A stretch of 64,000 nt of DNA, from the NCBI GenBank assembly GCA_963777155.1, contig CAVZPM010000002.1:11658-75657 (forward strand), in the 5' to 3' direction. Positions 928-63,497 of this stretch are shown piece by piece. The notes beneath the pieces are model-generated. The model had not been told where the DNA came from. It searched no databases and was given only the letters and a program-made list of their open reading frames with translations. The DNA is from Candidatus Bathyarchaeota archaeon (lineage in GTDB: Archaea > Thermoproteota > Bathyarchaeia > Bathyarchaeales > Bathycorpusculaceae). The position numbers and the translations under genes are program-made. Every line of letters begins with the position of its first letter. Position 1 is the stretch's first letter.

Positions 928-1806
928 TTGAAATTTGGAATAATGACGCGGAACATGGAAGCCTGGAGCTCTACTCAAGTTCGAGAAGCCCTAACTAAAC
1001 GAGGGATTCCATACGAATGCTTCACTTTCCCACGTCTTGTGGCAAGACTTGCTTACAGACCTTACTTTAAAGTCAATGGTACAAGTATTTTAGATGAATT
1101 AGATGCACTAATCATTCGCCCAATTGGACGCGGTTCATTAGAGGAATTGGTTTTCCGCATGGATATGCTCTACAAGCTTGAGCGCCAGGGATTCTACATG
1201 GTTAACCCGCCGACCGCCATCGAACACTGCGTCGACAAATATGACATTTTAGCGCTTCTAGAAGACGTTGGTGTCCCTGTACCTCGCACTTTAGCCACCG
1301 AAAGCGTAAACGAAGCCATAAAAGCATTTCATGAACTCGGAGGCGACATAGTTGTTAAACCCATCTTCGGCTCACGCGGACAAGGAGCCACACGCGTAAA
1401 TGATATAGACATCGCCGACACGGTCTTCAAAGCCATAACCTTCCACCATGGCGTTATCTACATGCAAGAATTCGTACCTCACGGAACCTCAGACATACGA
1501 GCCTTCGTTATCGGAGACCAAGTCGTTGCATGCATGCGCAGGGTAGCTACAGGATGGAAAACAAACTATAGTCAAGGAGCCAAACCGGCACCAGCAACGA
1601 TCAGTAAAGAATTTGAGGAAATAGCTGTTAAGTCAGCTAAAGCAGTAGGCTGCAAGATTGCTGGCGTAGATATCCTTGAGGGACCAGACGGTCCTCGCAT
1701 CGTAGACGTAAACAGCCAACCCGGCTGGAAAGGCTTGCAGGTAGTTGCAAAAGTTAACATTGCCGAAGAAATAGTCAACTTTGTGTTGACAGAACTGAAA
1801 AAATAA
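928..1806 (+). CDS. RimK-family ATP-grasp alpha-L-glutamate ligase (MptN/CofF/LysX-like)
   Basis: Motifs DK, VVKPIFGSRGQG, YMQEFV, DIRAFVIG, WKTNYSQG, GVDIL, DVNSQPG. Confidence 0.9.
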   Translation: MKFGIMTRNMEAWSSTQVREALTKRGIPYECFTFPRLVARLAYRPYFKVNGTSILDELDALIIRPIGRGSLEELVFRMDMLYKLERQGFYMVNPPTAIEHCVDKYDILALLEDVGVPVPRTLATESVNEAIKAFHELGGDIVVKPIFGSRGQGATRVNDIDIADTVFKAITFHHGVIYMQEFVPHGTSDIRAFVIGDQVVACMRRVATGWKTNYSQGAKPAPATISKEFEEIAVKSAKAVGCKIAGVDILEGPDGPRIVDVNSQPGWKGLQVVAKVNIAEEIVNFVLTELKK

Positions 1807-2811
1807 TTACTTGCCTGACAAGAATCAGAGTGTAGGGGTCATCGGCGACCTGCGGAAACTGTGTTTCTTTTCCTTTCTTTATTAGAACCCGTTCCTTGTT
1901 TTCTTTAAATTCACCTAGAAAGTAAGCAGATAAGCCATACTTGGCTAATGAGGCAGTGACTTTTTCTTGCGCTTTAGGAGAAACAGCCGCCAAAATCGTA
2001 CCCGTCGAAGACATTGACAACATTTGCTCATCTGTGAGGTTAAAGTGTTGTTTTAGGGCATAGACTTCCTTTGGGAAACGAGATTTTTTCCCAATCAACC
2101 CTTAACCCAACTTTCGATGCCTCAGCCAATTCGTTGAGAGCTGCCACAAACCCGCCTTCAGTCGCATCATGCATTGCATGCACGTCTTCAATTTCCGCAA
2201 GCTGAAGAGCCTCTCTTACACAGCTTTGCATGTGAACCAGTTTGGCGAGTTTCTCTTGTGTGTTAACTCCGAAGAGTTCTTGCGCTTCTTCCTTGTGAGT
2301 GAGTGAAAAGTTGGTTATTGTTTCTAAACCCAAGCGGTTTTGTGCACAAAATCAAATCACCTGCCTTGGCGTTTCCCGGCGTAATCAATTTTCGTGGTTC
2401 TACAGTTCCGTAAACCGTGCAGACACCGAGCATATCTTTGAGGCTGTCGTACATTCCTGTGTGTCCACGAACAATTGCAACGCCTAATTCGTCGACAGCT
2501 TGGCATGTTTGCTTCATGATTTTCTGGAAAACTTCTGGTTTTGTCCCTTTTGGTCCAAGGAGGTTTATTGTGCAGAATTCTGGTTTAGCCCCAAACAGCG
2601 CTACATCCGAAGCTGCATAATGTAATCAGAAGCCATCCAAACCACTCTTCAGGCACTCCCAGTGCATGGGTCCGTTGCAACCGCCACGTACTTGCCATGT
2701 AAAAGATGGACTCCTGCATCATACCCAATCATGGGCGGAACGATTACTCGAAAATCCTTCTTTATACAACTAAGCAATTTTTGGAGATCTTCGATTCGAA
2801 AGTTTCCCCAT
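1807..2811 (-). CDS. AIR synthase-family (PurM/HypE/ThiL-like) protein, broken by several frameshifts
   Basis: Stitched fragments: MGKLS...GYDAGV...VATDPC...AASDVALFGAKP...VRGHTG...KAGDLILCTKPLG...AMHDATEGG...SSTGTILAAV. Confidence 0.8.
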
Positions 2812-2825
2812 ATTTCTCATTCTCC

Positions 2826-3381
2826 TTAAATATAAATTTTTAGTACCTTGCTTTTCTGTAGTAGGCCTATTAATAGCACTTATTATCATGTTCGGGTACG
2901 AGGTAACTTCCGTTGTAGACTGCTGAGTAAAGCATGGGCTCATACCTTCAGGCGCATATGAGGCAAAGATAGACGACGCCTGAAACAAAATGCAGATGAA
3001 GCGTCCTGTAATTCCAACGACGACGCCAGCGACTGGCACTTTTTGGAAGAACCCTGCAAATCCAAGCACACCGAACGGCAGTGTATAATCCAGAGCACTG
3101 AGGTAGAAAATGGGTTTGACGACAAATGACTGCGAGCTGCAACAAACCCGAATACAGCGCCTGCGAATATACCAATTTTGGCTCCCGTCTTAAAGCGCAA
3201 GCCAAATTATAGGTACCATCCAAGGTGTAATTGAGCCTCCTTCGTGGCTAAAAACGAGTGACTGACATAAGCTAAGGCCCTGCCAACGCCACAAATATTG
3301 TTATTTCTGCGAGGATTTTGTTGGATTGTATGTTGTCTTTAAATATTTCTTAGGGTTAGGTTCAGTATTGGTTGTGTTCAA
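2826..3381 (-). CDS. thiT: Energy-coupled thiamine transporter S-component ThiT (many frameshifts)
   Basis: Manual translation across frames: KILAEITIFVALA, EGGSITPWMVPIIWLAL, GAKIGIFAGAVFG, LDYTLPFGVLGFAGFF, GRFI, HFVSGV, FASYAPEGMSP, YSAVYNGSYL. TTG start at 3381 lies right after a TPP riboswitch. Confidence 0.85.
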
Positions 3382-3385
3382 GTTT

Positions 3386-3484
3386 GTTTTTCCCTCCGCC
3401 AGTATTACCTGGTTCAGGTTCCTAAGGGTCGACAGCAAACAGCCGTCCTCTCAGCCAGGTCACTTTCCCAGCTCCCCAAGAACT
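3386..3484 (-). ncRNA. TPP (thiamine pyrophosphate) riboswitch aptamer
   Basis: Minus strand reads GGGGAGCTGGG-aaagtga-CCTGGC-TGAGA-GGACGGC-tgttt-GCTGTC-GACCCTT-AGGAACCTGAA-CCAG-GTAATA-CTGG-CGGAGGGA. All conserved THI-box elements are present (P2 GGGG/CCC, P3, UGAGA, P3a, ACCUGA, P5 with UAAU loop, GCG.AGG), upstream of thiT. Confidence 0.95.
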
Positions 3485-3539
3485 AATGGGATAATGTTTT
3501 TAGGTGATATTTTAGTTTTCCTACCCAAACACTAACGAG

Positions 3540-6032
3540 TTGATTAGCATGCAACCTATGCCTAAGGAATACAATTTTGCTGAAATCGAGCGGAAATGGC
3601 AGAGCAAATGGGAAGAGATGGGTATCTACCACTACGATTGGAATGATAAGCAACGAGTGCCCTACAGTATTGACACGCCACCTCCTTACCCTTCGGGCGA
3701 ACTCCACATGGGCAACGTCCTCAACTGGACATACTTTGACATGGTTGCACGCTACAAACGAATGCAAGGCTACAACGTGTTGTTTCCACAGGGTTGGGAT
3801 TGCCATGGTTTAGGTATAGAAATCCAAGTGGAAAAGTCAAGAAACATCCGCAAACGTGACATCCCCCCAGACCAGTTCCGGTCATGGTGCATCGAGCTTG
3901 TTGAGAAATACATCGCCATGATGAAGGAAGGCATCCTTAAAATGGGCGCCAGCATTGATTGGACTACTGAATACAAAACGATGGATCCCGACTATTGGCG
4001 CCGCACACAACTTAGTTTCGTGTTGCTACACAAGAAAGGTTTCATGTACCAGGGCACACACCCCGTTAACTGGTGTCCCCGAGATGAAACCGCGATCGCC
4101 GACGCAGAAGTTGACCACATAAAAAAGGAAGGCACCCTGCATTATATTCGGTTCCATCTTGAAGGCAGCAGTGAATACCTACTAATTGCCACGTCACGCC
4201 CCGAATTTATTCCAGCATGCGTTGCTGTTGAAGTAAATCCAAAAGACGAACGCTACAGCAAGTACATTGGCAGAAAAATTTCTGTACCCCTTATGAACCG
4301 CGAAGTAACCATCATTAGTGAGGAATCAGTGGACCCGAGTTTTGGCACAGGCGTTGTCCAAATCTGTACTTACGGCGATAAAGAGGATGTAAAGACAGTA
4401 ATAAAACACAAACTTCCCGTTATTCGACTCCTTACTGAAAGTGGAAGAATTAGCGAAGCTGGCTGTAAATACTCGGGTTTGTATGTTAACCAAGCGCGTG
4501 CAGCAATCGTTGCCGACTTAACAACTGCTGGACTGCTGGAAAAGACAGAAAAGATACAGCAGGAAGTGGGCGTTTGCGATCGTTGCAAAGCCCAAGTCGA
4601 AATTCTAGAGGTTAAACAATGGTTCATGAAAACCATGCCCCTCTCTGAAGCTGTGGAAAAAAATGCTAATGAGATTCCGTGGTATCCCGATTATATGAAA
4701 AACCGTTTGATCGACTGGACACGGGCTTTGGATTGGGATTGGGTTGTTAGTCGCCAAAGACTGTTTGCTACGCCCATTCCTGTTTGGTACTGCAAGAGCT
4801 GCGGAGAAGTTGTAGTTGCTGAGGAAAGCTGGGTGCCAATTGACCCTCGAATGGAGAAACCTCGAATTGACAAGTGCCCCCGATGTGGCGGCGCCGATTT
4901 CACTGGGGAAACCGACGTGTTGGATACATGGATGGATTCCTCAATCACATGCGCGGTCCATGCGGGCTGGCCAGACCGAGCTGACTGGAAGCACCTATTC
5001 CCAGCGAGTGTTCACCCATCAGGTACAGACATCATCCGAACTTGGGCATACTACCTCATGGTACGCCACCTAGCCTTGTTCGACCAGCGCCCTTTCAACA
5101 GCGTCCTCATAAACGGCATGGTATTAGGTGCAGATGGCAGAAAAATGAGCAAATCACTGAAGAATTACGTTGCAGCTCCAGAAGTTTTGAATAAAAGTGG
5201 TGCTGATGCAACTAGGCAGTGGGCTGCTGGTGGAGGAGCAACAGGTTCAGATATTCCTTTCCGCGCCCAAGATGTCGAATATGGCAGACGCTTTTTGGTA
5301 AAACTGTGGAACGTTACTGGGTTTGCAAGTAACCTCTTAGCAGACTATAACCCCAAAGCCAATGCGGAAGTTGATCTGCAGCTACTTGATAAATGGATTC
5401 TCAGCAAAACGGAGAACTTGATTAAAAAAGTTACAGAAGCCTTCGAAAAATGCCAATTCAACATCGCAGTCGAAGAGATCCGTAACTTCACCTGGCACGT
5501 CTTCTGCGACTACTACATTGAATCAGTGAAGGATAGACTATATCATCAAGAGGAGGAGAACGCACCGAAAAGGCGAGCTGCTCAACGGACCCTTTATGAG
5601 GTACTGTACAAAATTCTGCAGTTGCTAGCACCAATAACTCCTCACTTAACTGAAGAAATCTATCAAAATATGTACGCTGATGATAAAGGTTTCAAAAGTT
5701 TACAGATAACCCTTTGGCCAAAGGTAGACAACGCCCTCGTCGACGAGACAATAGAAGAGGAAGGAGATAAAGTGATGGCTTTAATTGAGGATGTGCGAAG
5801 AAAGAAAGCGGCGCAAAAGTTGCCATTAAATATTCCCGTTTTGTCCCTTGACGTCTACGCGGGAAATGAAACAAGCGCCAACCTAATCATTTCAAGCAAA
5901 GAAGATATTGCAGGGACTCTCAAAGTTGTAGGTAATTTTAACGTTATCCCCAAAGCTGGTCAAGGCCAAGAAGTGCCACAATTTCCAGGGGTAATTGCTG
6001 TTGCTATCTTCGGGGCGGTAACCAAGAAATGA
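3540..6032 (+). CDS. valS: Valine--tRNA ligase
   Basis: IDTPPPYPSGELHMGN (HIGH), GWDCHGL, DWVVSRQR, DTWMDSS, KMSKS; archaeal type. Start may be ATG 3549. Confidence 0.96.
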   Translation: MISMQPMPKEYNFAEIERKWQSKWEEMGIYHYDWNDKQRVPYSIDTPPPYPSGELHMGNVLNWTYFDMVARYKRMQGYNVLFPQGWDCHGLGIEIQVEKSRNIRKRDIPPDQFRSWCIELVEKYIAMMKEGILKMGASIDWTTEYKTMDPDYWRRTQLSFVLLHKKGFMYQGTHPVNWCPRDETAIADAEVDHIKKEGTLHYIRFHLEGSSEYLLIATSRPEFIPACVAVEVNPKDERYSKYIGRKISVPLMNREVTIISEESVDPSFGTGVVQICTYGDKEDVKTVIKHKLPVIRLLTESGRISEAGCKYSGLYVNQARAAIVADLTTAGLLEKTEKIQQEVGVCDRCKAQVEILEVKQWFMKTMPLSEAVEKNANEIPWYPDYMKNRLIDWTRALDWDWVVSRQRLFATPIPVWYCKSCGEVVVAEESWVPIDPRMEKPRIDKCPRCGGADFTGETDVLDTWMDSSITCAVHAGWPDRADWKHLFPASVHPSGTDIIRTWAYYLMVRHLALFDQRPFNSVLINGMVLGADGRKMSKSLKNYVAAPEVLNKSGADATRQWAAGGGATGSDIPFRAQDVEYGRRFLVKLWNVTGFASNLLADYNPKANAEVDLQLLDKWILSKTENLIKKVTEAFEKCQFNIAVEEIRNFTWHVFCDYYIESVKDRLYHQEEENAPKRRAAQRTLYEVLYKILQLLAPITPHLTEEIYQNMYADDKGFKSLQITLWPKVDNALVDETIEEEGDKVMALIEDVRRKKAAQKLPLNIPVLSLDVYAGNETSANLIISSKEDIAGTLKVVGNFNVIPKAGQGQEVPQFPGVIAVAIFGAVTKK

Positions 6033-63419: not shown

Positions 63420-63497
63420 TGGCGGGTCCGACGGGAATTGAACCCGCGACCCTCGGATTAAGAGTCCGATGCTCTAGCCTGACTGAGCTACGGACCC
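63420..63497 (-). tRNA. tRNA-Lys (anticodon CTT), intronless, CCA encoded
   Basis: GGGTCCG TAGCTCAGTCAGGCTAGAGCA TCGGA-CT-CTT-AA-TCCGA GGGTC GCGGG-TTCAATT-CCCGT CGGACCC GCCA cloverleaf. Confidence 0.96.

What the first reader, a model, noticed from the sequence alone, without database searches (positions are those of the whole stretch)
3381..3484. Canonical TPP riboswitch in an archaeon, positioned to control translation of thiT
Seen: the minus-strand leader has every conserved THI-box element: P2 GGGG/CCC, P3 GCTGGG/CCTGGC, the UGAGA pyrimidine sensor, P3a GACGGC/GCTGTC, AACCUGA, P5 CCAG-GTAATA-CTGG and GCGGAGGGA. The GGAGG in the 3' strand of P4/P1 lies 11 nt upstream of the thiT TTG start, and no separate terminator hairpin is visible. 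Established: riboswitches are rare in archaea; TPP switches are best known from Thermoplasmatales, and many archaea use the protein regulator ThiR instead. Inference: ligand binding sequesters the SD directly inside the aptamer, giving RNA-based thiamine sensing in a probable Bathyarchaeia genome.
Basis: partly seen in the sequence, partly recalled or inferred. Interest (0 to 1): 0.85.

Follow-up and report, generated by a model that had tools for sequence, protein, structure and literature searches.

The report
TPP riboswitch before archaeal thiT
This is a genuine thiamine-pyrophosphate-sensing RNA switch in front of a thiamine transporter gene of a Bathyarchaeia archaeon; such switches are common in that class, and here the ribosome-binding site sits inside the sensor, but the transporter gene itself is frameshifted in this assembly.

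Summary
Rfam RF00059 (TPP) matches window 3374-3488 (-) over the full model at 60.8 bits, above the gathering score of 54.3, E 1.9e-9.

- **Conservation.** The aptamer is found in 22 of 24 genus-mates and in 93 of 151 sampled genomes of the class. Record titles of the nearest relatives say Bathyarchaeota/Bathyarchaeia.
- **Gene context.** In 70 non-redundant related loci it precedes ThiT (58) or another small ECF-type S component (12).
- **Ribosome-binding site.** GGAGG (68 of 70) is the 3' strand of P4. A start codon follows 6-12 nt later in 62 of 70 loci. No platform or terminator lies between them.
- **Helices.** P3, P3a and one P5 pair covary; P1 is weak.
- **Promoter.** A BRE/TATA-like box at fixed distance predicts a transcript starting at the aptamer's first bases.

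The best reading is a TPP-dependent OFF switch that acts by direct SD occlusion. The mechanism is inferred, not tested.

thiT and the next PurM-superfamily gene carry 16 frame breaks, all extra bases. Related short-read contigs lack those extra bases where they cover them, and amino-acid divergence shows no clear excess. This is most likely an assembly artefact (about 0.8).

It is a new member of a known kind, of moderate interest.

The parts
3374..3488 (-). TPP riboswitch aptamer (RF00059), full-length model match
   Evidence: 60.8 bits, gathering score 54.3, E 1.9e-9, model positions 1-105 of 105; the only hit in the genome.
3507..3522 (-). Archaeal promoter-like element. A purine-rich BRE-like AGGAAAAC (3522-3515) is followed by the TATA-like TAAAATAT (3514-3507). 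It predicts a transcription start near 3484/3483.
   Evidence: an A-rich block with a TAAAATAT / TAATATG / TAAATAT-type box sits at a fixed distance (about -46 to -30 from the GGGG of P2) in most of 70 loci, including loci not next to ValRS. The start site is inferred from the usual 23-27 nt TATA-to-start distance (general knowledge).
3479..3483 (-). P1 5' strand, GUUCU. It pairs with AAAAC at 3390-3386.
   Evidence: structure line: 4 of 5 pairs. P1 is weak across relatives.
3449..3477 (-). Pyrimidine-sensor arm: P2 5' GGGG, P3 GCUGGG/CCUGGC, and J3-2 CUGAGA.
   Evidence: GGGGAGCU and GCUGAGA are invariant in 70 of 70 sequences. P3 is paired in 99.5% of cells, with 3 covarying pairs.
3431..3447 (-). 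P3a hairpin, GACGGC-UGUUU-GCUGUC.
   Evidence: 6 of 6 pairs show changes on both sides, and 98.1% of cells are paired.
3393..3418 (-). Pyrophosphate-sensor arm: P4 CCUG/GAGG and P5 CCAG-GUAAUA-CUGG.
   Evidence: invariant apart from one covarying P5 pair (AU in 68, GC in 2). The outermost P4 position is unpaired in 70 of 70 (G.G in the 68 GGAGG loci).
3393..3397 (-). Shine-Dalgarno GGAGG, which is also the 3' strand of P4.
   Evidence: GGAGG in 68 of 70 and GAAGG in 2 of 70; the 16S 3' ends of G003, G014 and G040 end in ...GAUCACCUCCU.
3379..3381 (-). thiT start codon TTG, 11 nt after GGAGG.
   Evidence: locus L030 has the same TTG and a matching N-terminus, and there it opens a 183-aa ThiT (188-aa stop-to-stop frame).
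2826..3381 (-). thiT (ECF thiamine S component), broken by 11 frame breaks as assembled. The breaks lie near 3342, 3329, 3280, 3192, 3149, 3097, 2994, 2968, 2934, 2890 and 2877.
   Evidence: After skipping the extra bases it is 64.8% identical (114 of 176) to the L030 ThiT.
1775..2820 (-). Second gene of the operon: a PurM/AIR-synthase-superfamily protein of no named subfamily. It is broken by 5 single extra bases near 2793, 2660, 2623, 2334 and 2078.
   Evidence: After correction it is 78.4% identical (247 of 315) to the L030 orthologue.

Best explanation
Window 3374-3488 (-) is a functional-looking TPP riboswitch. It forms essentially the whole 5' leader of a thiT operon (thiT plus a PurM-superfamily gene) in a Bathyarchaeia genome.

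The proposed sequence of events is as follows. Transcription starts a few bases before P1, from a BRE/TATA-like promoter at 3522-3507. The ribosome-binding site GGAGG (3397-3393) is itself the 3' strand of helix P4 of the pyrophosphate-sensor arm. The A-rich spacer to the TTG start (3381) is the weak 3' strand of P1. When TPP is plentiful, the two sensor arms close on the ligand. That locks GGAGG in P4 and packs the start region against the aptamer, so the small ribosomal subunit cannot bind and ThiT synthesis falls. When TPP is scarce, the marginal three-pair P4 breathes and the SD is available. This is direct occlusion without a separate expression platform.

What is shown: aptamer identity, conservation, covariation, the position of the SD and start codon, the anti-SD sequence, and the gene content. 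What is inferred: the transcription start, TPP binding, and ligand-dependent ribosome exclusion.

The 16 frame breaks in the two downstream genes of this assembly are most likely consensus errors (extra bases) rather than gene decay.

My odds:
- TPP aptamer: 0.97
- controls the thiT operon: 0.9
- acts mainly by direct SD occlusion: 0.6
- frame breaks are artefacts: 0.8
For: **Aptamer identity and spread**
- RF00059 full-length match at 60.8 bits against 54.3.
- One hit in the own genome.
- 29 of 41 relatives' genomes have a match, G000 included, and 22 of 24 genus-mates.
- 93 of 151 sampled genomes of the class have a match, 92 over the cut-off, in 48 of 79 genera.
- 47 of 80 ValRS neighbourhoods carry the aptamer in the 3-kb upstream flank, on the opposite strand.

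**Covariation on 70 non-redundant sequences**
- 86.1% of cells are paired.
- 14 pairs change on both sides, against 6.2 in shuffles; 0 of 500 shuffles reach this value.
- Slid controls reach at most 7 such pairs.
- P3 is paired in 99.5% of cells and P3a in 98.1%.

**SD and start codon**
- GGAGG in 68 of 70 loci, GAAGG in 2 of 70.
- A start codon 6-12 nt later opens an ORF of at least 150 aa, or one that runs off the locus, in 62 of 70.
- The Rfam consensus has u where these sequences have G.
- That G leaves the outer P4 position unpaired in 70 of 70. The aptamer therefore loses a base pair to carry a stronger SD.
- The anti-SD CCUCC is present at the 16S 3' end of 3 of 3 relatives checked.
- In G000, GAGG lies upstream of 145 of 1200 first-ATG starts against 45 of 1138 internal controls. 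GGAGG spacings cluster at 6-11 nt.

**No separate platform**
- No terminator-like site lies between the aptamer and the start.

**Promoter**
- A promoter-like box sits at fixed distance.

**Folding without ligand**
- Modelled folding leaves the SD in balance: mean P(unpaired) 0.43 and mean P4 pair probability 0.37 over 70 leaders.

**Gene context**
- ThiT follows in 58 of 70 loci and another ECF-type S component in 12 of 70.
- A thiT TPP riboswitch is experimentally validated in Lactococcus lactis (PMC8862789, abstract read).

**Frame breaks as artefacts**
- 14 of 16 breaks are one extra base and 2 are two extra bases; none is a plain deletion.
- Corrected AIRS identity to L030 is 78.4%. Two intact orthologues at the same ValRS distance are 79.8% identical.
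- Short-read contigs of related strains lack the bases at 2623 and 2658.
- The number of gaps per contig equals the number of breaks in the stretch it covers: 3 in 2143-2752, 1 in 1958-2172 at 1 mismatch, and 2 in 2503-2765.
- G000 shows no other ThiT, no ThiC, no ThiE, no true Thi4 and no TPK. A dead thiT would therefore leave no recognised source of thiamine.
Against: - No RNA data were available. No listed sequencing run is RNA, so the transcription start and any regulation are untested.
- P1 is not supported by covariation. The strict-register pairing fraction is 0.46, against 0.42-0.52 in slid controls. The duplex z-score averages -0.19.
- The P4/P5 secondary structure may also form without ligand, so occlusion could be leaky.
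- The leader's minimum-free-energy fold is not clearly better than shuffles (z -1.37; 18 of 200 shuffles fold at least as well). It also shows a competing helix, GUUCUUGGGG with CCUUAGGAAC, instead of P1.
- Strong SD motifs are used by a minority of genes in this genome: GGAGG lies upstream of 26 of 1200 starts.
- In 20 aptamers sampled from other families of the class, only 4 have a start within 12 nt that opens an ORF of at least 150 aa. The SD-making position there is G in 9, U in 5 and A in 6. The compact design is therefore a lineage trait, not a class rule.

Against the artefact reading:
- The breaks are confined to exactly these two genes, while ValRS, the RimK-like gene and the rest of the 64-kb window read open.
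- The thiT part (2973-3374) had almost no near-identical cover in the laid runs.
- Corrected ThiT identity to L030 is lower (64.8%) than the 77.0% seen between L030 and L038.
Confidence: 0.6

Rival explanations
1. The aptamer is functional but acts mainly on RNA level, through premature transcription stop, processing or decay of the untranslated mRNA, or through an internal strand exchange in which the 5' tail pairs with J2-4 rather than by simple steric occlusion of the SD.
For: The ligand-free minimum-free-energy fold replaces P1 by the helix GUUCUUGGGG/CCUUAGGAAC and shifts P4. A 2024 review places the TPP class in the 'strand exchange' group, not 'direct occlusion' (PMC10907184, passages read). 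Untranslated mRNAs are commonly unstable (general knowledge).
Against: Only 6-12 nt separate the aptamer from the start codon in 62 of 70 loci. There is no U-tract or terminator-like hairpin downstream. By eye, the alternative helix did not appear conserved in the other sequence groups of alignment A1; this was not quantified.
Confidence: 0.2
2. In this particular genome the thiT operon is a decaying pseudogene pair and the riboswitch is a still-intact relic with nothing left to regulate.
For: 16 frame breaks are confined to the two regulated genes, while neighbouring genes are open. 5 further loci of 70 also lack an open thiT behind the aptamer: L008, L035, L063, L084 and L102. Degenerate aptamer copies exist in L051 and L073.
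Against: All 16 breaks are extra bases, whereas prokaryotic pseudogenes are known to be biased towards deletions (recalled general knowledge). At most one in-frame stop remains after correction, in the variable N-terminus. The PurM-like gene shows no excess amino-acid divergence, 78.4% against a calibrator of 79.8%. Related short-read contigs lack the extra bases. No alternative thiamine supply was found in a genome that is 90.6% complete. The aptamer core is identical to that of relatives.
Confidence: 0.18
3. The RF00059 match is a chance or non-TPP look-alike.
For: The score is only 6.5 bits above the gathering threshold. There are four non-canonical pairs in the match.
Against: E is 1.9e-9. 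The position is syntenic and conserved in 22 of 24 genus-mates. P3, P3a and P5 covary. All ligand-contact motifs are invariant. The association with thiT is constant.
Confidence: 0.01

Closest known systems
TPP riboswitch / THI element (Rfam RF00059), for example the validated thiT riboswitch RSthiT of Lactococcus lactis (PMC8862789, abstract read)
   Same: Same aptamer family, with a full-length match over the gathering score. Same regulated gene, the ECF thiamine S component ThiT. The same logic is expected: more thiamine means less transporter.
   Different: The host is an archaeon. There is no separate expression platform, because the SD is the P4 3' strand and the start codon follows after 6-12 nt. 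P1 is nearly vestigial. A G replaces the consensus u, which creates GGAGG and a G.G mismatch in P4.
Archaeal TPP riboswitches reported earlier (Thermoplasmata; Rodionov et al. 2002, recalled, paper not held; counts in McCown et al. 2017, PMC5473149, passages read)
   Same: A TPP aptamer in front of thiamine uptake genes in archaea. TPP and fluoride are the classes known in that domain.
   Different: McCown 2017 lists riboswitches in Euryarchaeota (79), Crenarchaeota (6), and Korarchaeota and Thaumarchaeota (1 each), and does not mention Bathyarchaeia. Here 93 of 151 sampled genomes of the class carry the family. My searches for riboswitch with Bathyarchaeota or Bathyarchaeia found no paper on this.
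Direct-occlusion riboswitches (SAM-II, preQ1-I/II, SAM-III) as grouped in PMC10907184 (passages read)
   Same: The RBS is part of the aptamer fold, there is no separate platform, and control is translational.
   Different: Those are small pseudoknots or small junction aptamers. The review treats the TPP class under 'strand exchange'. Here a large three-way-junction TPP aptamer would use occlusion. This is inferred, not shown.
ThiR, the protein repressor of thiamine genes in many archaea
   Same: It serves the same physiological purpose, thiamine-dependent control of uptake or synthesis genes in archaea.
   Different: ThiR is a protein transcription factor rather than a cis-acting RNA. I did not search G000 for ThiR.

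Membership tests
TPP riboswitch (Rfam RF00059) | Covariance-model score at or above the curated gathering score over the whole model | tested here: met
   60.8 bits against 54.3, model 1-105 of 105, E 1.9e-9
TPP riboswitch (Rfam RF00059) | Pyrimidine-sensor arm: P2, P3 and the J3-2 motif CUGAGA | tested here: met
   CUGAGA at 3454-3449 is invariant in 70 of 70. P3 is paired in 99.5% of cells, with 3 covarying pairs.
TPP riboswitch (Rfam RF00059) | Pyrophosphate-sensor arm: ACCUGA, P4, P5 and GCG-N-AGGGA | tested here: met
   AACCUGA at 3420-3414 and GCGGAGGGA at 3399-3391 are invariant or nearly so. One P5 pair covaries. The outer P4 pair is replaced by a G.G mismatch.
TPP riboswitch (Rfam RF00059) | Closing helix P1 joining the two arms | tested here: inconclusive
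   4 of 5 pairs in G000. Only 50.9% of cells are paired over 70 sequences. The strict register is no better than slid registers. The mean duplex z-score is -0.19, and P1 is strong only in L104 and L108.
TPP riboswitch (Rfam RF00059) | Location in the leader of a thiamine synthesis or transport gene | tested here: met
   ThiT follows in 58 of 70 loci (TIGR02357 at 144.4 bits against 108.45 for L030). An ECF-type S component follows in 12 of 70.
TPP riboswitch (Rfam RF00059) | Selective binding of thiamine pyrophosphate | not testable with these tools
   This needs in-line probing, ITC or a crystal structure.
Direct-occlusion riboswitch (mechanistic group of PMC10907184) | The ribosome-binding site is part of the aptamer fold | tested here: met
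   GGAGG at 3397-3393 is the P4 3' strand. It is present in 68 of 70 loci. The anti-SD CCUCC is present in 3 of 3 relatives' 16S.
Direct-occlusion riboswitch (mechanistic group of PMC10907184) | No separate expression platform (terminator or anti-SD hairpin) | tested here: met
   There are 6-12 nt from the SD to the start in 62 of 70 loci. No terminator-like site lies downstream of the aptamer.
Direct-occlusion riboswitch (mechanistic group of PMC10907184) | Ligand binding reduces ribosome access | not testable with these tools
   Folding without ligand gives only a mean P(unpaired SD) of 0.43. No experiment was possible.
ThiT (Pfam PF09515 / NCBIfam TIGR02357) | Intact open reading frame of about 180-200 aa matching the family | tested here: not met
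   In this assembly TTG 3381 opens 27 codons, and there are 11 frame breaks. The fragments still match PF09515 at 32.6 and 38.6 bits. The frame is intact in most relatives.

The most novel reading that the evidence does not exclude
The TPP switches of this Bathyarchaeia order (70 non-redundant loci) are platform-less, direct-occlusion riboswitches.

- A lineage-fixed U-to-G change turns the P4 3' strand into a perfect GGAGG.
- That change costs one aptamer base pair.
- P1 has decayed to a few A-U pairs that double as the SD-start spacer.
- The promoter places the first transcribed base at the aptamer's edge.

If true, this would be the first TPP-class member to work by direct occlusion, and a tractable case of riboswitch-controlled translation initiation in archaea.

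A linked lead concerns the second gene. An unnamed PurM-superfamily gene lies within 1.8 kb downstream of the aptamer in 50 of 70 loci. It may be the missing step of thiamine salvage in these apparent auxotrophs.
Probability: 0.5. Interest if true: 0.6.

Novelty: new member of a known kind. Interest (0 to 1): 0.45.

Why it matters
- **Taxonomic reach.** TPP riboswitches are the only class found in all three domains, yet published counts for archaea are small (PMC5473149). In this sample, about 6 in 10 species-level Bathyarchaeia genomes carry one. That makes this abundant, mostly uncultured sediment and soil class one of the richest archaeal reservoirs of a metabolite riboswitch.
- **Mechanism.** The compact design combines the SD inside P4, a vestigial P1 and no expression platform. 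It offers a simple system for asking how a large junction aptamer can gate archaeal translation initiation.
- **Ecology.** It marks these organisms as thiamine scavengers. G000 shows no ThiC, ThiE, Thi4 or TPK.
- **Practical caution.** The regulated genes in this assembly are unreadable as they stand, so gene callers will miss thiT here.

Tried and rejected
- **Chance match.** Rejected.
- **Terminator-based control.** Rejected. The only terminator-like pattern is the P3a hairpin, at the chance level, and the RNA after the aptamer is A-rich.
- **A conserved P1 or an extended P1 that covers the start codon.** Tested in strict register and by duplex energy against shuffles. It is not supported except in L104 and L108.
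- **An alternative genetic code to explain the broken frames.** Not pursued, because the breaks are frame changes rather than stops.
- **RNA evidence.** No RNA holder was listed by the look-up of sequencing runs. The four laid runs are contigs of related strains. The part 2973-3374 had almost no cover, so the thiT breaks themselves could not be checked.
- **16S in G000.** Not found in the assembly, which is 90.6% complete. I read the anti-SD from three relatives instead.
- **Genome-wide search for further frame-break islands.** I only listed 106 stretches of at least 1200 nt without an ORF of at least 150 aa and did not analyse them.
- **Literature.** Searches of the held library found no paper on TPP riboswitches in this class:
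  - TPP riboswitch + archaea + thiT
  - riboswitch + Bathyarchaeota
  - TPP riboswitch + Thermoplasma
  - riboswitch + archaea + ThiR + thiamine
  - riboswitch + Bathyarchaeia
  - 'archaeal riboswitch' + TPP
  - TPP riboswitch + Shine-Dalgarno + 'within the aptamer'

  Subscription journals are mostly not held. Supplements were closed, and I asked for none.
- **ThiR.** I did not search for it.
Full report
**1. Observation.** The minus strand of window 3374-3488 matches Rfam RF00059 (TPP riboswitch aptamer) over the whole model (positions 1-105 of 105). The score is 60.8 bits against a gathering score of 54.3, with E 1.9e-9. It is one of only two matches in the window at gathering level; the other is a tRNA at 63423-63497. 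It is the only TPP hit in the 2.29-Mb, 39-contig assembly.

- P1 GUUCU (3483-3479) with AAAAC (3390-3386)
- P2 GGG(G) with CCC
- P3 GCUGGG with CCUGGC
- CUGAGA (3454-3449)
- P3a GACGGC with GCUGUC
- AACCUGA
- P5 CCAG-GUAAUA-CUGG
- GCGGAGGGA (3399-3391)

GGAGG (3397-3393) is followed by 11 nt and then TTG (3381-3379). The only terminator-like pattern in 3100-3700 is the P3a hairpin, at the chance level of 1 found against 0.6 expected.

**2. Organism.** The divergent neighbour gene is a class-I aminoacyl-tRNA synthetase (window 3540-6032 +, Pfam tRNA-synt_1), which I call ValRS without having confirmed its amino-acid specificity. It found 266 relatives in the genome collection. The 80 kept are 67-93% identical. 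Nearly all are titled as Bathyarchaeota or Bathyarchaeia metagenome-assembled genomes; a few are labelled Nitrososphaerota, Crenarchaeota, uncultured archaeon, or in one case Methanocella sp..

**3. Conservation.**
- RF00059 matches 29 of 41 genomes in the relatives draw, G000 included; 28 of those are over the cut-off. Within the genus it matches 22 of 24; the two misses are 58% and 65% complete.
- In an even draw of the class it matches 93 of 151 genomes. Of these, 92 are over the cut-off, and 64 of 95 high-quality genomes have it. It occurs in 48 of 79 genera, with up to four copies per genome.
- A profile of 29 aptamers found the element in the 3-kb flank upstream of ValRS, on the opposite strand, in 47 of 80 loci.
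- I dropped six loci fetched twice, one locus cut by its contig end, and two degenerate copies. That left 70 non-redundant sequences, which I aligned as A1.

**4. Structure.** On A1, 86.1% of cells form standard pairs. 14 of 29 pairs change on both sides, against 6.2 +/- 1.2 in shuffles; 0 of 500 shuffles reach this value. Partners slid by 1-3 columns give at most 7 such pairs and at most 51% paired.

| Helix | Cells paired | Covariation |
|---|---|---|
| P3 | 99.5% | 3 covarying pairs |
| P3a | 98.1% | 6 of 6 pairs covary |
| P2 and P4 | not given per helix | never or hardly vary, so uninformative |
| P5 | not given per helix | one pair covaries |
| P1 | 50.9% | weak, see below |

P1 is the exception.
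- In strict register its pairing fraction is 0.46, against 0.42-0.52 for slid registers.
- The duplex energy between the 5' tail and the 3' tail is no better than for shuffled tails. The mean z is -0.19, and 16 of 70 sequences fall below -1.
- Only L104 and L108 have a strong P1. There it includes the TTG start codon and shows a compensatory change.

**5. Ribosome-binding site and start.**
- The P4 3' strand reads GGAGG in 68 of 70 loci and GAAGG in 2 of 70.
- A start codon (26 GTG, 22 ATG, 14 TTG) lies 6-12 nt after it in 62 of 70 loci. It opens an ORF of at least 150 aa in 58 and a frame that runs off the locus in 4.
- The other 8 loci are G000, five further loci with broken frames (L008, L035, L063, L084, L102), and two with a long frame but no canonical start nearby (L079, L105).
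- The Rfam consensus has u where these RNAs have the first G of GAGG. That G faces a G in P4, so the position is unpaired in 70 of 70. The lineage gives up an aptamer base pair to have a full SD.
- The 16S rRNA of two genus-mates and one same-order genome ends in ...GAUCACCUCCU. G000 has no 16S in the assembly.
- In G000, SD-like motifs are enriched before starts. GAGG occurs before 145 of 1200 starts against 45 of 1138 internal controls. GGAGG occurs before 26 against 11, with spacings of 6-11 nt. They serve a minority of genes (starts were called crudely as the first ATG).

**6. Promoter.** An A-rich BRE-like stretch followed by TAAAATAT or a close variant lies about 46-30 nt before the GGGG of P2 in most of the 70 loci, including those not next to ValRS. 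In the window it is at 3522-3507. With the usual archaeal spacing, the transcript would start at about 3484/3483, the first bases of P1. This is inferred. No RNA run was listed.

**7. Genes controlled.**
- In relatives the first gene is ThiT (PF09515 at 165 bits; TIGR02357 at 144.4 against 108.45). This holds in 58 of 70 loci.
- In the other 12 of 70 it is another small ECF-type S component (PF07155 at 39.3 bits), followed by a class-I methyltransferase.
- A PurM/AIR-synthase-superfamily gene lies within 1.8 kb downstream in 50 of 70. It is below every NCBIfam equivalog cut-off: SelD 94 against 125, ThiL 87 against 184, HypE 79 against 252. It is about equally distant from solved HypE, SelD and PurM structures.

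**8. The frame breaks.** In the window, TTG 3381 opens only 27 codons. A frameshift-aware alignment to the L030 orthologues needs 11 breaks in thiT and 5 in the PurM-like gene. 14 of these are one extra base and 2 are two extra bases. After skipping them, identity is 64.8% (114 of 176) for ThiT and 78.4% (247 of 315) for the PurM-like protein.

For calibration, L030 and L038 are as far apart in ValRS (94.3%) as G000 and L030 (93.3%). They are 77.0% identical in ThiT and 79.8% in the PurM-like protein. The PurM-like gene therefore shows no excess amino-acid change. ThiT is somewhat lower, but it is very variable among relatives (37-91%).

Contigs from four coded metagenome runs were laid on 1700-3700.
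- They include pieces 97-99.5% identical to the window.
- The number of gaps in each piece equals the number of breaks in the stretch it covers: 3 in 2143-2752, 1 in 1958-2172 with a single mismatch, and 2 in 2503-2765.
- One run explicitly lacks one base at 2623 and one at 2658.
- The thiT part 2973-3374 was almost uncovered.

G000 has no second ThiT match and no ThiC. For Thi4 it has only Rossmann-fold N-terminal matches. It has no ThiE and no TPK. It does have a true ThiL at 246 bits and lacks the alternative S component.

Several points favour consensus errors at about 0.8: the all-insertion pattern, the lack of decay in the PurM-like gene, the absence of the extra bases from close strains, and the lack of any other thiamine source. 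Against this, the breaks are confined to exactly these two genes while the rest of the window reads open.

**9. Mechanism.** The sequence leaves no room for a platform.
- The SD is a helix strand of the pyrophosphate-sensor arm.
- The spacer to the start is the weak P1 strand.
- Without ligand, modelled ensembles leave GGAGG unpaired with mean probability 0.43 and form P4 with mean probability 0.37 over 70 leaders. The balance is marginal, and ligand-induced closure of the two arms could tip it.

I therefore favour direct occlusion of the ribosome-binding site, an OFF switch, at about 0.6. The G000 leader's MFE fold (-38.2 kcal/mol; z -1.37; 18 of 200 shuffles fold as well) shows a competing helix between the 5' tail and J2-4. 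That helix could be a ligand-free state. By eye on A1 it did not look conserved in the other sequence groups; I did not quantify this.

**10. Comparison and novelty.** The element passes the membership tests for RF00059 except for a convincing P1.
- TPP riboswitches in archaea have been known since 2002 (recalled). McCown et al. 2017 count few in the domain and none in this class (PMC5473149, passages).
- The thiT association is validated in Lactococcus (PMC8862789, abstract).
- A 2024 review files the TPP class under 'strand exchange' and lists small pseudoknot and junction aptamers under 'direct occlusion' (PMC10907184, passages).
- Seven library searches found nothing on TPP riboswitches in Bathyarchaeia.
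- In 20 aptamers taken from other families of the class, only 4 show a start within 12 nt that opens an ORF of at least 150 aa. The SD-making base there is G in 9, U in 5 and A in 6 (crude ORF calling). The compact design is therefore typical of this order rather than of the class.

Noticed in passing
window 2078-3342 (-): An island of 16 frame breaks, all of them extra bases (14 single, 2 double), about one per 79 nt. It is confined to thiT and the following PurM-like gene, while the flanking genes read open. The contexts of the breaks share no common motif.
   Followed up: yes
window 1775-2820 (-); L030:1279-2286 (-): A PurM/AIR-synthase-superfamily gene lies within 1.8 kb downstream of the TPP aptamer in 50 of 70 loci. 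It is below all NCBIfam equivalog cut-offs (SelD, ThiL, HypE) and about equally distant from solved HypE, SelD and PurM structures. It is a candidate thiamine-salvage enzyme.
   Followed up: partly
L033:2179-2718 (-) and L033:1495-2175 (-); also L004, L020, L024, L027, L029, L035, L039, L061, L091, L103: In 12 of 70 loci the same riboswitch precedes a different small ECF-type S component (PF07155, 39.3 bits) followed by a class-I SAM methyltransferase. L061 and L091 carry both operon types in tandem, each with its own aptamer.
   Followed up: partly
window 3489-3552: Only about 60 nt separate the aptamer from the divergent tRNA-synthetase gene (called ValRS here). The near-palindromic TAAAATAT / ATATTTTA box could serve both directions. 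A block CATTATCCC (3495-3487) is conserved in the ValRS-adjacent loci.
   Followed up: no
L051:2834-2933 (-) and L073:143-239 (-): These are degenerate aptamer copies (nhmmer 53 and 71 bits). They have lost P5 and the GGAGGGA motif. In L051 the degenerate copy sits next to ValRS, and an intact copy lies about 1 kb further on.
   Followed up: no
G000, whole genome: The genome looks like a thiamine auxotroph. It has no ThiC, ThiE, TPK or true Thi4 match, while ThiL is present at C25:2780-3739. The assembly is 90.6% complete, so absence is not proven.
   Followed up: partly
G000 C11:2846-3640 and C15:36745-37539: There are two hits to an AIR-synthase-family paralogue with nearly identical scores and identical 355-aa open frames. 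This may be the same region assembled on two contigs.
   Followed up: no
G000 C37:18828-28202: A 9.4-kb stretch has no ORF of at least 150 aa. It is the longest of 106 such stretches of at least 1200 nt. I did not examine its nature.
   Followed up: no
L104:2035-2166 (-) and L108:237-368 (-): Two more distant Bathyarchaeia loci have a strong 8-9 bp P1 that includes the TTG start codon. A compensatory change (U-A to C-G) separates the two.
   Followed up: partly
L002, L003, L005, L023, L104: In other families of the order, thiT behind the riboswitch is followed by a KaiC/RecA-like ATPase gene (PF06745, 109.8 bits for L002).
   Followed up: no
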